In this document: in pieces, positions 6,001-9,000 of the stretch | How positions within the stretch are numbered: position 1 is the stretch's first letter | Layout of the letters: each line of letters starts with the position of its first letter | Origin: a virus | Lineage: Duplodnaviria; Heunggongvirae; Uroviricota; Caudoviricetes | Strand: one strand, 5' to 3' | Length of the DNA: 49,096 bases | IMG/VR virus record: IMGVR_UViG_2541047773_000006 | Position numbers: made by a program

Positions 6001-9000
6001 GCTTTCTTTAATTCCTTTATTGCAAAGGTGGTAAGCATATTTTATTTTCTTAGTCATCACCATGACTCCGCCTTTACAGGTAAACCATCACGACCGAGGA
6101 AGACTTTAATCATGCAGTCAGTAATGCATGTTTTTGTGGTCAGGTTACGAATATAAAGTTTTCGCTTTTTAATATTGTTTGCCGAGGCAATATATGTCCG
6201 GCCGTTATGAAGAACATAATCACCAGGAGTCACACACTGACGTGGTATTTCATCAGTTCCGAAGTGATGAGCAATCATAATTATCTCCATTTTCACAAAT
6301 GAACTTTGTTGATGCGGTGCCTGGTGCCTCCAGGTGACGTTAACCAGTTAACAATTAACGCCGGATAATCCACCCATAACTCTGATGCTTTTAACTGTTC
6401 CGCGTGCGCTTAGCCGCATTCACCGCATCACAAAATTCACTTTAAAAAGGGCGGACATCAGCCGAACTTCAAGAAAAAACTGATGCCGCCAAGGCTACAC
6501 ACAGCAATGTCGTTATTTACAACCGGAGGCGCACTCCCACCATTTAAATTTAACAGACAAGACCGACTCTTTATGGATACCGGAAGTGCGCCTTCGTGTT
6601 GTGCCCAGTTTTATTTCACCACCTCCGGGCTTCGGTGGTCTCGGCTATACCCCTACAGCGAGAGCTTGTGTTAACATTTCAATACCCTTACAGTTGAGAG
6701 TTATTGATATGTTGGATGTATTTACTCCATTGTTGAAACTTTTTGCTAACGAGCCACTCGAAAGACTTATGTATACGATTATCATTTTTGGTCTCACTCT
6801 CTGGCTGATACCGAAAGAGTTTACTGTCGCATTCAATGCTTATACTGAAATACCTTGGCTCTTTCAGATTATCGTTTTTGCCTTTTCTTTCGTGGTCGCC
6901 ATTTCCTTCTCAAGATTGCGAGCACATATTCAAAAGCATTATTCATTACTACCAGAGCAACGAGTATTGCTTCGTTTATCTGAGAAAGAAATCGCTGTAT
7001 TTAAAGATTTCCTTAAAACAGGAAATCTTATTATCACTTCTCCTTGCCGTAACCCGGTTATGAAAAAATTAGAACGGAAGGGCATCATTCAACATCAGAG
7101 TGATAGCGCAAACTGTTCTTATTATCTCGTCACCGAAAAATACTCCCATTTTATGAAGTTATTCTGGAACAGCAGGAGTAGACGTTTTAATCGTTAGCTT
7201 ACTGTGTGCTTCTCCAACCATCGGCGCGCACCAGTTTCGGTTTTAAATGTTTTGCTTTTTGTATACGTCATCGCGGTGAACGTACCGTCCTGGTTGGGAA
7301 ACACGCCACACACCATGGATTCGTTGTTGCCGAGGTCGATTTTTTTGCATTTTGGGAACCCTCACATCTTGTTGTTGCGGATAGAGGCTTCTGCCTGCCA
7401 GAGATCCCAGTCGTTGCTGCGTAGAACCTGTACAGCCTGGCTGTAAGTGATGCCGCAACAATCCATCAAATACTGAACTACTTCGTAATGCACCATCTTA
7501 TCTCTCCCCTTAACGCCGGGTGGCGGAACTAACTGCTGCACTGCAAAATTTGAATCCCGCCGTCATGTTCATACGCCTCGGGCTGGCTACTTAACCCCTT
7601 ACCACTGCCTGGTAACTCGAAGTATTGCCCTGCGTTCTGTGGGGCGGGGTGGGTGGTATGCTGGAACTATAGGTAATGCCTAATTGATTGTCAATAGGCT
7701 ATGCCTAATGTTTTGAGCGTAACCTAATAGGTGATGGCGACAGGAGAAAGTGATGGGGGGTTAAATAACGGAATCCAGGAGTTTTCCGTCAGACCATATA
7801 AGTTTAAGTTCCAGTTTTTGTGATGTTCTGGCTTTTCCGTTCAGATTCTAGAGCTTTCAGATACTTACCCACTTTCATTTCCATCGCTGCTATGTAGGCG
7901 CGAACATCGTGGTCAACCCAATCTGGTTCTGTAGTATTTCCAGATAACAGGAAAGCTACAATCGCTCTTATTTCATCAGAGGCTGCTTGATAAAGGTTGT
8001 TTATATCTAAAAGTTCACTTTTTGTATCTGAATTGGTGGGGGTTGGTATGGGGTATTCGTTAAGCCCCCAATGCTCTGGACCAACAACATCAGAAAAGAA
8101 ACGCCATAATTCTGGAAGTTTATCTTTACTTATGGAGCCTTTCTTAATCCAGTCATAAATTGATGGTGGTTGGACTTTGAAGTGGCGTGCGACCTCCGCC
8201 TTTGATTTGACGGATCCCGATGCGATTTTTTTGTTAATGGCCTGCTCTATCGCTCGGCCTAAGTCTTTACCACTAAGCATTGCTTAATATTCTCCTATGC
8301 TCATTGCATTAGGCAATCCCTACCCTTATCGCATTAGGCATAGCCTATTGACATTTGTGTTAGGCGTCGCCTAATATTTCTGTGTGTTTTTGGAGTTCAT
8401 TCGATGAAAAAAGAGAACTATTCATTCAAGCAAGCTTGTGCTGTTGTCGGTGGGCAATCAGCAATGGCTAGGCTTTTAGGTGTATCACCTCCAAGCGTAA
8501 ATCAATGGATCAAAGGGGTACGTCAATTGCCTGCCGAGAGATGTCCAGCAATTGAACGTGCAACAAGAGGTGAGGTTCTGTGCGAAGAGCTTCGTCCTGA
8601 TATTGACTGGTCATATTTACGACGTTCGGCATGTTGTTCGCAGAATATGTCAGTGAAGCAACTAAATGACAGTAACAAATCCTCATTTGATCATACCTGA
8701 AACATCAAGAGGCAAATGATTCATGAAAATCAAGCATGAACACATCGAATCAGTGTTGTTTGCCCTGGCAGCCGAAAAAGGGCAGGCATGGGTAGCCAAT
8801 GCAATTACTGAAGAATATCTGCGCCAGGGGGGCGGCGAATTGCCCCTGGTACCAGGCAAGGACTGGAATAATCAGCAGAATATCTATCACCGTTGGTTGA
8901 AAGGTGAAACGAAAACGCAAAGAGAAAAAATTCAGAAGCTGATCCCAGCAATTCTGGCAATCCTTCCGCGCGAGCTGCGTCACCGACTCTGCATCTTCGA

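What the first reader, a model, noticed from the sequence alone, without database searches (positions are those of the whole stretch)
7660..8380. Immunity region: racR flanked by a perfect 22-bp inverted repeat with outward promoters and TAGGC operators
A 22-bp sequence (7689..7710) recurs as its exact reverse complement at 8332..8353, on either side of racR. Each copy contains a TTGACA -35 hexamer facing away from racR (leftward -10 TATAGT at 7671..7666; rightward -10 TAATAT at 8372..8377) and a TAGGC-N3-GCCTA palindrome. Further sites include TTAGGCGTCGCCTAA (8360..8374) overlapping the rightward -10, and CATTAGGCA at 8307..8315. This mirrors lambda OL/PL and OR/PR and predicts the RacR operator consensus.
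Basis: seen in the sequence. Interest (0 to 1): 0.5.

Follow-up and report, generated by a model that had tools for sequence, protein, structure and literature searches.

The report
Rac prophage immunity switch: OL/PL and OR/PR
The repeat is real and marks the two repressor-controlled outward promoters flanking the Rac prophage repressor gene racR: the right-hand set is already mapped experimentally, and the left-hand set appears undescribed but is what a lambda-like phage is expected to have.

Summary
7689-7710 is the exact reverse complement of 8332-8353. TAGGC-N3-GCCTA (up to 1 mismatch) occurs five times in 49 kb, all flanking racR, against 0.85 expected.

The 22-mer is not a unit in itself. 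It is one RacR operator abutting a TTGACA -35 box. This sits inside a longer shared promoter/operator unit: operator 2, -35, operator 1 overlapping the -10.

The right-hand copy is already known. The TTAGGC/GCCTAA repeats and RacR binding were published in 2017. DNase I footprints, the operator consensus and the mapped ydaS promoter (TTGACA/TAATAT) followed in 2022.

I found the left-hand copy (OL1 7670-7682, OL2 7695-7707, promoter 7694..7666) in no paper I could read. Comparison supports it strongly:
- The same unit lies downstream of RacR-type repressor genes in Klebsiella phage KpF5, Mixta, Morganella, Proteus, Achromobacter and Pigmentiphaga, at distances from 65 to about 1,900 bp.
- Substitutions avoid half-sites and hexamers (2/80 against 74/357, p=1.4e-5).
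- Published RNA-seq shows ydaG and ydaF rising about 40-fold while racR mRNA falls.

Exactness of the 22 bp is lineage-specific (21/22 in K-12, 15/22 in distant relatives). Verdict: an ordinary lambdoid OL/PL-OR/PR design, half already known, low-to-moderate interest.

The parts
7666..7671 (-). PL -10 hexamer TATAGT. Predicted transcription start is about 7659 (A on the minus strand), giving a leader of about 163 nt to the ydaG start codon.
   Evidence: 11/12 match, 17-nt spacer. The -10 is kept, with a 17-nt spacer, in all ten PL units compared. Start site and promoter activity are inferred, not measured.
7670..7682 (.). OL1: RacR operator TAGGTAATGCCTA (1 mismatch). It lies in the PL spacer and overlaps the -10 by 2 nt.
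   Evidence: Same position relative to the promoter as the footprinted right-hand operator at PydaS. The only change against O157 falls on the position that was already off-consensus.
7689..7694 (-). PL -35 hexamer TTGACA.
   Evidence: TTGA scores 2.0 bits across 16 non-redundant PL/PR units.
7695..7707 (.). OL2: perfect RacR operator TAGGCTATGCCTA, abutting the PL -35.
7689..7710 (.). Left arm of the exact 22-bp inverted repeat (-35 + OL2 + flanking ATG/CAT).
7804..8280 (-). racR, 158 aa: the prophage repressor, functional analogue of lambda CI. Weak HTH match only; no S24 autocleavage domain.
   Evidence: Literature: PMC5700373, PMC9638921, PMC11014345.
8274..8286 (.). Operator over the racR start codon, TAAGCATTGCTTA (2 mismatches). 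This is 'O3' of the 2022 paper.
   Evidence: Published footprint and description. In diverged lineages the site has 1 mismatch and always lies at -6 relative to the start codon.
8289..8294 (-). -10 (GAGAAT) of the leaderless racR promoter PracR3, the PRM analogue.
   Evidence: The sequence read matches the -10 box mutated in PMC9638921.
8310..8322 (.). Right-hand operator TAGGCAATCCCTA (1 mismatch), 25 bp from OR2.
   Evidence: It lies within the published RacR-protected region.
8335..8347 (.). OR2: perfect operator TAGGCATAGCCTA, abutting the PR -35.
   Evidence: In K-12 the spacer is ACA, not ATA.
8332..8353 (.). Right arm of the exact 22-bp inverted repeat.
8348..8353 (+). PR (PydaS) -35 hexamer TTGACA.
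   Evidence: Mapped experimentally in PMC9638921.
8361..8373 (.). OR1: perfect operator TAGGCGTCGCCTA, in the PR spacer and overlapping the -10. This is published 'O1', the site protected at the lowest RacR concentration.
   Evidence: PMC9638921.
8372..8377 (+). PR (PydaS) -10 hexamer TAATAT.
   Evidence: Replacing it with CCCGGG abolished promoter activity (PMC9638921).
8404..8700 (+). ydaS, 98 aa: Cro analogue, first gene of the PR operon.
   Evidence: YdaS_toxin 107.7 bits; P22_Cro 36.8 bits, above its 30.2 cut-off.
8723..9145 (+). ydaT, 140 aa: CII analogue.
   Evidence: PMC11879457.
7362..7496 (-). ydaG, 44 aa: first gene downstream of PL.
   Evidence: Induced about 40-fold when RacR is lowered.
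7194..7349 (-). ydaF (DUF1391), 51 aa: second gene of the leftward operon. It is followed on the same strand by kilR, ydaE, racC, recE, recT and int.

Best explanation
This is the immunity switch of a Rac-type lambdoid prophage.

Architecture. racR (7804-8280, minus strand) is flanked by two copies of one promoter/operator unit that face away from it. The unit reads: operator 2 (TAGGC-N3-GCCTA), then immediately TTGACA, then 5-6 nt, then operator 1 (TTAGGC-N3-RCCTA), whose last two bases begin the -10. The right copy is OR/PR, which drives ydaS (Cro-like) and ydaT (CII-like). The left copy is OL/PL, which drives ydaG, ydaF and then kilR, racC, recET and xis/int.

Mechanism. RacR dimers bind each dyad through the N-terminal helix-turn-helix domain. 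Operator 1 occludes the spacer and -10, and operator 2 sits against the -35, so both early promoters are off in the lysogen. Two further right-hand sites (8310-8322, and 8274-8286 over the start codon) overlap the racR promoters and give autoregulation.

Shown experimentally, by others, for the right side only: RacR binding, footprints, the PydaS start site and repression.

Shown here: the left unit has the same architecture, is conserved across genera independently of its distance from the repressor gene, and is under purifying selection at exactly the half-sites and hexamers.

Inferred: RacR binds OL1 and OL2, PL is an active RacR-repressed promoter, and the published RacR octamer may bridge OL and OR in a loop of about 0.65 kb.

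The exact 22-bp repeat has no function of its own. It is OL2 plus the -35, which happen to be identical to OR2 plus the -35 in this lineage.
For: 1. Motif clustering. Five sites with up to 1 mismatch, all flanking racR, against 0.85 expected. The 22-mer occurs only at these two places.

2. Identical architecture of the two units. Operator centres are 25 bp apart on the left and 26 bp on the right. The -35 to -10 spacers are 17 and 18 nt.

3. The right side is experimentally established (PMC5700373, PMC9638921, PMC11879457).

4. Cross-lineage conservation of the left unit. It lies downstream of the repressor stop codon as follows:
- +101 bp in E. coli and E. ruysiae
- +91 bp in Mixta
- +65 bp in Morganella
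- +151 bp in Proteus
- about 1.4 kb in Klebsiella phage KpF5, beyond an inserted gene
- +941 bp in Achromobacter
- +1,884 bp in Pigmentiphaga

5. Information content. Half-sites and TTGA score 2.0 bits, the N3 spacers 0.4-1.1 bits and the flanks about 0-0.7 bits.

6. Footprint test against the 86%-identical O157 lineage. Overall 2/80 functional positions changed against 74/357 other intergenic positions (p=1.4e-5). Left side alone: 1/30 against 57/277 (p=0.024).

7. K-12 against the window. All 8 substitutions in the 123-bp intergenic region avoid half-sites and hexamers.

8. Operator specificity tracks the RacR N-terminal domain. The Achromobacter and Pigmentiphaga repressors share only residues 1-77 (74-75% identity) and carry an S24 peptidase C-terminal domain, yet they have the same operators on both sides.

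9. Published RNA-seq. When the C protein lowers RacR, racR mRNA falls. ydaG, ydaF, ydaE and racC rise about 40-fold, and kilR, ydaC and ralA more than 70-fold (PMC6765115). Read-through from the racR promoters cannot do this, so it needs a separate RacR-repressed promoter between racR and ydaG.

10. All genes from ydaG to int lie on the minus strand.

11. RacR is an octamer by size-exclusion chromatography (PMC11014345).

12. The related prophage CP-933P has a tested PL933P/OL1-3 whose -35 and -10 are identical to those of its PR (PMC8630535).
Against: - No binding, footprint, start-site or reporter data exist for the left unit.
- Hexamer matches alone are not above chance in the window.
- OL1 has one mismatch, and there is no convincing third left operator.
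- Klebsiella sp. R390 has the right-hand operators but no left unit within 3.5 kb.
- The literature attributes kilR silencing to Rho-dependent termination of transcripts coming from the racR promoter (PMC4150792), so not all leftward transcription need start at PL.
- A racR deletion with the intergenic region intact is viable in a ydaS-ydaT deletion background (PMC5700373). A derepressed PL is therefore not lethal through kilR, or its transcripts do not reach kilR efficiently.
- The authors who found the octamer assign it to four operators within the racR-ydaS intergenic region, not to OL-OR bridging.
Confidence: 0.85

Rival explanations
1. The left copy is an auxiliary operator only. It would serve cooperative or looping repression of PR and the racR promoters and have no promoter activity. 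Leftward genes would be expressed by read-through from the racR promoters past a Rho-dependent terminator, or from other promoters such as the one reported for KilS.
For: The Rho-termination model of kilR silencing (PMC4150792). Hexamer matches alone are at chance level. KilS may have its own promoter.
Against: TTGACA, a 17-nt spacer and a -10 are conserved in all ten PL units, including distant genera. An operator-only site has no need for them. racR mRNA falls while ydaG and ydaF rise about 40-fold. The analogous PL933P is an active, repressible promoter.
Confidence: 0.08
2. The 22-bp arms are terminal inverted repeats of a small mobile cassette carrying racR, or a recombination scar marking the boundaries of an exchangeable immunity module.
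For: A perfect 22-bp inverted repeat flanks a single 477-bp gene.
Against: There is no target-site duplication: the outer flanks CTAATTGAT and TTTGTGTTA differ. There is no transposase. The arms resolve exactly into an operator plus a -35. Similarity continues imperfectly for about 65 bp, with a 1-nt indel placed where the promoter spacers differ. In relatives the arms are 15-21/22 identical, with changes confined to the N3 spacer and flanks, and the left arm lies 65-1,884 bp from the gene with other genes in between.
Confidence: 0.02
3. The repeat acts at the nucleic-acid level: long-range pairing between the 5' and 3' untranslated regions of long racR transcripts, or cruciform extrusion.
For: Exact 22-nt complementarity. 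Some racR transcripts start upstream of the leaderless start site.
Against: Complementarity is not maintained. K-12 has a mismatch in the middle, and distant lineages reach only 15-19/22 with no compensatory changes. Variation is concentrated in the N3 spacer, as expected for protein dyads and not for helices.
Confidence: 0.01

Closest known systems
Bacteriophage lambda OL/PL and OR/PR with CI and Cro
   Same: The repressor gene is flanked by two outward early promoters, each overlapped by dyad-symmetric operators of one shared specificity. Operator spacing is similar (25-26 bp here; 23-24 bp in lambda, from my own knowledge). A leaderless autoregulated repressor promoter lies at OR. The leftward operon carries kil, recombination and int/xis genes. 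The repressor forms an octamer.
   Different: The operator sequence is unrelated (TAGGC-N3-GCCTA). There are only two clear left operators, against three in lambda. One right-hand operator lies over the repressor start codon. The OL-OR distance is about 0.65 kb, against about 2.4 kb in lambda, with no rexAB-like genes in between. RacR has no S24 autocleavage domain and a different C-terminal fold. YdaS reportedly does not repress racR (PMC9638921).
Published Rac racR-ydaS intergenic region (Krishnamurthi 2017; Wisniewska 2022; the 2023 and 2025 NAR papers)
   Same: This is the same locus. The right half of the finding, meaning the operators, their consensus and the PydaS -35 and -10, is exactly what those papers mapped.
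   Different: Those papers treat only the region upstream of racR. None of the held texts mentions sites downstream of racR. They call the RacR regulon uncharacterised and place the octamer on four operators within the intergenic region.
CP-933P prophage (E. coli O157:H7): PR933P, PRM933P and PL933P with PaaR2 and YdaS
   Same: A lambdoid switch with YdaS and YdaT partners. PL has -35 and -10 boxes identical to those of PR and has its own OL operators. The repressor is an octamer. PL was shown to be repressible (PMC8630535).
   Different: The repressor (PaaR2) and the operator consensus (GTTTAGTAA-type) are different. A toxin-antitoxin pair lies between the repressor gene and PL.

Membership tests
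Lambdoid immunity region (repressor/Cro switch with OL/PL and OR/PR) | Divergent repressor and Cro-like genes sharing an intergenic control region | tested here: met
   racR on the minus strand and ydaS on the plus strand, 123 bp apart. YdaS scores above the cut-off for P22_Cro.
Lambdoid immunity region (repressor/Cro switch with OL/PL and OR/PR) | Several dyad-symmetric operators at OR overlapping PR and the repressor's own promoter | tested here: met
   Four sites at 8274-8373. Published DNase I footprints cover them.
Lambdoid immunity region (repressor/Cro switch with OL/PL and OR/PR) | A second operator set of the same specificity with an outward promoter on the far side of the repressor gene | tested here: met
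   OL1, OL2 and PL at 7666-7707. The unit is conserved in seven further lineages and under purifying selection. This is sequence-level evidence only.
Lambdoid immunity region (repressor/Cro switch with OL/PL and OR/PR) | The repressor physically binds OL and represses PL | not testable with these tools
   Indirect support only: RNA-seq induction of ydaG and ydaF while racR mRNA falls.
Lambdoid immunity region (repressor/Cro switch with OL/PL and OR/PR) | A leftward early operon with kil, recombination and excision/integration genes | tested here: met
   ydaG, ydaF, kilR, ydaE, racC, recE, recT and int are all on the minus strand.
Lambdoid immunity region (repressor/Cro switch with OL/PL and OR/PR) | Long-range OL-OR looping by a repressor octamer | not testable with these tools
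   An octamer is reported by size-exclusion chromatography. Looping has never been tested.
Lambda CI / LexA-type repressor protein family (HTH + S24 autocleavage domain) | C-terminal Peptidase_S24 domain | tested here: not met
   RacR in the window gives only a weak HTH_17 match and no S24 domain. RacR works like CI but is not a member of this protein family. The Achromobacter and Pigmentiphaga homologues do carry S24.
Published RacR operator, (T/A)TAGGC-n3-GCCTA(T/A) | Match to the footprint-derived consensus | tested here: met
   OL2 ATAGGCTATGCCTAA is an exact match. OL1 ATAGGTAATGCCTAA has one core mismatch.
IS or MITE-like mobile element with terminal inverted repeats | Target-site duplication and a transposase, or multiple genomic copies | tested here: not met
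   No duplication at the outer flanks. The only gene inside is racR. The 22-mer occurs only at these two sites.

The most novel reading that the evidence does not exclude
The left unit is a working OL/PL, and the published RacR octamer is a tetramer on OL1-OL2 joined to a tetramer on OR1-OR2. This would close a loop of about 0.65 kb around racR itself, unusually small for a lambdoid immunity loop.

That would revise two current models. One places the octamer on four operators within the racR-ydaS intergenic region. The other explains silencing of kilR and recET mainly by Rho termination of racR read-through. Instead, PL would be the primary RacR-gated source of the leftward early transcript.
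Probability: 0.35. Interest if true: 0.4.

Novelty: new member of a known kind. Interest (0 to 1): 0.25.

Why it matters
Rac is present in many E. coli genomes. The 1.4-kb racR region is at least 80% covered in 1,085 of 5,426 complete genomes. The prophage carries kilR, recET and ralR, and racR is essential in K-12.

The groups working on it describe the RacR regulon as uncharacterised and model repression using the right-hand operators only. Placing a conserved OL/PL 95-140 bp downstream of racR gives three things:
- A defined, testable promoter for the ydaG-kilR-recET-int transcript.
- An explanation for the published RNA-seq pattern.
- A lambda-style looping alternative for the octamer.

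It also shows that one operator specificity, carried by the RacR N-terminal domain, spans gamma- and betaproteobacterial phages with two different C-terminal architectures. None of this changes the general picture of lambdoid switches.

Tried and rejected
- Genome-wide start-site data. The Thomason 2015 paper is not held. The supplements of the Cappable-seq paper had no entry near the predicted K-12 position or for ydaG. This is uninformative, because PL should be repressed in a lysogen and the stored files may be truncated.
- Conter 1996 (the kil gene of Rac) and the September 2026 bioRxiv racR CRISPRi paper could not be read. A prior description of the left promoter there, or in EcoCyc or RegulonDB, cannot be excluded.
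- Literature searches for racR with ydaG, kilR with promoter, sbcA with recE, loop with octamer, ChIP-seq and KilS found no description of sites downstream of racR.
- A structured RNA or nut/put-like element in the PL leader. The fold is not better than shuffles (z = -0.5), and there is no Rfam match in the leader.
- Promoter significance from consensus alone was rejected as evidence.
- Weak operator-like sites elsewhere in the window (2 mismatches) are at chance level and were dismissed.
- Mobile-element and RNA-pairing readings of the repeat were rejected (see rival explanations).
- A third left operator. The best candidate, 7714-7726, has 3 mismatches, lies 19 bp from OL2 rather than 25, and is not conserved outside Escherichia.
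Full report
**1. What is in the sequence**

The region holds racR (7804-8280, minus strand, 158 aa), with ydaS (8404-8700) and ydaT (8723-9145) divergent on the plus strand. ydaG (7362-7496) and ydaF (7194-7349) lie downstream of racR on the minus strand.

The window is a Rac-type prophage. The 1.4-kb stretch is 100% identical to one E. coli chromosome. At least 80% of it is covered in 1,085 of 5,426 complete E. coli genomes, where it is annotated racR, ydaS and ydaT. It is about 99% identical to K-12 MG1655 Rac.

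- 7689-7710 is the exact reverse complement of 8332-8353.
- The leftward promoter is TTGACA / 17 nt / TATAGT at 7694..7666.
- The rightward promoter is TTGACA / 18 nt / TAATAT at 8348-8377.

**2. Is it more than chance?**

TAGGC-N3-GCCTA with up to one mismatch occurs five times in 49 kb, against 0.85 expected, and no shuffle reached five. All five sites flank racR.

Two negative calibrations matter:
- Promoter-hexamer matches of this quality are as frequent as expected by chance in the window.
- At two mismatches the operator motif is also at chance.

The case therefore rests on clustering, architecture and conservation, not on consensus scores.

**3. Anatomy**

Oriented in the direction of transcription, the two sides are copies of one unit:

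cat-TAGGC-N3-GCCTA | TTGACA | 5-6 nt | tTAGGC-N3-RCCTA, whose last TA begins the -10 (TATAGT on the left, TAATAT on the right).

- Left: OL2 7695-7707, -35 7694..7689, OL1 7670-7682, -10 7671..7666.
- Right: OR2 8335-8347, -35 8348-8353, OR1 8361-8373, -10 8372-8377.
- Operator centres are 25 bp apart on the left and 26 bp on the right.

The 22-bp perfect repeat is simply operator 2, plus the -35, plus three flanking bases.

The right side has two more sites: 8310-8322 (one mismatch), and 8274-8286 over the racR start codon (two mismatches). The latter lies next to the GAGAAT -10 of the leaderless racR promoter.

**4. What is already known**

- The racR-ydaS intergenic repeats TTAGGC/GCCTAA, three RacR-DNA complexes in EMSA, ChIP-qPCR enrichment and repression of a ydaS reporter were published in 2017 (PMC5700373).
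- In 2022, DNase I footprinting gave the monomer motif ATTAGGC and the operators (T/A)TAGGC-n3-GCCTA(T/A). One coincides with the ydaS promoter and one lies over the racR ATG. Primer extension and -10 mutagenesis defined PydaS as TTGACA/TAATAT and defined PracR1-3 (PMC9638921).
- Later papers added the RacR octamer, 'four inverted repeats' in the intergenic region, and YdaT as a CII analogue that activates a PRE-like promoter (PMC11014345, PMC11879457).

The right half of the finding and the 'predicted' operator consensus are therefore established facts.

**5. What I could not find in the literature**

No held paper mentions RacR sites or a promoter downstream of racR.

The 2023 paper states that the RacR regulon is not characterised and lists ydaFG as an operon of unknown function. 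kilR silencing is explained by a Rho-dependent terminator inside racR acting on transcripts from the racR promoter (PMC4150792).

Conter 1996 and a 2026 preprint could not be read, so I cannot exclude prior description.

**6. Evidence that the left unit is functional**

(a) Conservation independent of position. The same unit follows RacR-type repressor genes at these distances from the stop codon:

| Lineage | Distance |
|---|---|
| E. coli, E. ruysiae | +101 bp |
| Mixta | +91 bp |
| Morganella | +65 bp |
| Proteus | +151 bp |
| Klebsiella phage KpF5 | about 1.4 kb, beyond an inserted DUF450 gene |
| Achromobacter | +941 bp |
| Pigmentiphaga | +1,884 bp |

Only Klebsiella sp. R390 lacks it. 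That locus also has a decayed PR -35.

(b) Position-specific conservation. Over 16 non-redundant units, the half-sites and TTGA score 2.0 bits, the N3 spacers 0.4-1.1 bits and the flanks about 0-0.7 bits. All PL units keep a 17-nt spacer.

(c) Footprint test against the 86%-identical O157 lineage:
- 2 of 80 functional positions changed, against 74 of 357 other intergenic positions (p=1.4e-5).
- Left side alone: 1/30 against 57/277 (p=0.024).
- Both changes fall on positions that were already off-consensus.
- The eight K-12 differences in the intergenic region likewise avoid all half-sites and hexamers.

(d) Specificity follows the DNA-binding domain. The betaproteobacterial repressors share only residues 1-77 with RacR and carry a Peptidase_S24 C-terminal domain. 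They nevertheless have the same operators at both OR and OL.

(e) Published expression data. When the C protein lowers RacR, racR is the only Rac gene whose mRNA falls. ydaG, ydaF, ydaE and racC rise about 40-fold, and kilR, ydaC and ralA more than 70-fold (PMC6765115). A drop in racR transcripts together with a 40-fold rise immediately downstream on the same strand requires a separate RacR-repressed promoter between them. This is my inference.

(f) The related prophage CP-933P has an experimentally repressible PL whose hexamers are identical to those of its PR.

**7. The exactness of the repeat is incidental**

Identity over the 22-nt frame is as follows (K-12 mismatch seen):

| Lineage | Identity |
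|---|---|
| This window | 22/22 |
| K-12, E. ruysiae | 21/22 |
| O157 | 20/22 |
| Pigmentiphaga | 19/22 |
| Mixta | 17/22 |
| Morganella | 16/22 |
| KpF5, Proteus, Achromobacter | 15/22 |

Differences sit in the N3 spacer and the flanks, with no compensatory pattern. This argues against RNA or cruciform pairing and against transposon ends. There is also no target-site duplication and no transposase.

**8. Mechanism**

Shown by others, for OR: RacR binds the dyads. The promoter-proximal operator at PydaS is filled first. PydaS is repressed and racR is autoregulated.

Inferred here: RacR binds OL1 and OL2 in the same way and shuts PL. Loss of RacR fires PL and PR together, giving the leftward ydaG-kilR-recET-int transcript and the rightward ydaS-ydaT-replication transcript.

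Speculative (about 0.35): the octamer bridges OL and OR (OL2-OR2 centres 640 bp apart), as in lambda, rather than sitting on four intergenic sites.

The PL leader of about 163 nt is C-rich at its 5' end. It shows no significant fold and no Rfam match, so I propose no antitermination element.

**9. Verdict**

The system is a standard lambdoid OL/PL-OR/PR design in a well-studied prophage. Half of it, including the operator consensus, is already published.

The left operator/promoter is, as far as I can tell, an undescribed but expected member of a known kind. It has modest practical value for those modelling Rac regulation. Interest 0.25.

Noticed in passing
window 6264-6503 (minus strand): Two adjacent sub-threshold Rfam matches upstream of kilR: STnc100 (6264-6447, 42.4 bits, gathering score 47) and DicF (6449-6503, 41.4 bits, gathering score 48). 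The DicF-like hit overlaps the position of the K-12 sRNA KilS (L001 1906-2003), which was reported as a kilR 5'-UTR sRNA with a possible promoter of its own. A DicF-like RNA next to a cell-division inhibitor gene mirrors the dicBF arrangement of the Qin prophage.
   Followed up: partly
L013 3501-4598 (Achromobacter MAG); L014 3501-4406 (Pigmentiphaga daeguensis): Repressors of 365 and 301 aa that join a RacR-like N-terminal domain (74-75% identity over residues 1-77) to a Peptidase_S24 (LexA/CI-type) C-terminal domain. They have YdaS-like divergent partners and the same TAGGC-N3-GCCTA operators at OR and OL. This looks like domain shuffling between an SOS-cleavable and a non-cleavable repressor architecture with one DNA specificity.
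   Followed up: partly
L003 3149-4303 (Klebsiella phage KpF5); L014 4406-5615: Extra genes sit between the repressor gene and OL/PL: a DUF450 protein in KpF5 and about 1.2 kb with several ORFs in Pigmentiphaga. This is the slot where lambda carries rexAB. They may be lysogen-expressed defence or moron genes.
   Followed up: no
window 7636-7660 (minus-strand transcript); L002 and L014 PL leaders: The first 25 nt or so of the predicted PL transcript are very C-rich and G-poor (CCACCCACCCCGCCCCACAG). A similar CCCGTCCC(C)ACACA string follows PL in the O157 lineage and in Pigmentiphaga. It could be a Rho-loading site or another leader signal. The fold is not significant.
   Followed up: partly
window 7714-7726: TGAGCGTAACCTA (reverse complement TAGGTTACGCTCA) is a weak operator-like site 19 bp from OL2. 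It has 3 mismatches here and 2 in E. ruysiae and phage vB_EcoS-683R6. Only the ATTAGGT half-site is kept in O157. It may be a weak OL3 or a solitary half-site.
   Followed up: partly
PR units of L003, L009, L010, L011, L012, L014: Outside the E. coli Rac lineage, OR2 is TAGGCAATTCCTA (one fixed mismatch) in six lineages (Achromobacter differs: TAGGCAATACCTG), while OL2 is a perfect dyad in every PL unit examined. This suggests a conserved affinity difference between the two operator sets.
   Followed up: no
L012 (Klebsiella sp. R390): This locus has three right-hand operators, including the one over the start codon. Its PR -35 is decayed (TTTTAT), and no OL/PL unit lies within 3.5 kb downstream. 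It is probably a degraded prophage.
   Followed up: no
L007 (contig JARKOR010000130.1, labelled Candidatus Nanosynbacter MAG): A 5.2-kb contig whose RacR homologue is 99% identical (protein) to the window's and whose OL and OR operator sets match E. coli's. It is almost certainly a mis-binned E. coli contig in a Saccharibacteria MAG.
   Followed up: no
window 8281-8403 compared with K-12 (L001): The racR-ydaS intergenic region carries 8 substitutions in 123 bp against K-12, compared with about 1% elsewhere in the aligned stretch. One changes the published PracR2 -10 (AGTAAG in K-12; the window reads GCGATAAGGG at that place). The minor racR promoters may therefore differ between Rac variants.
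   Followed up: no
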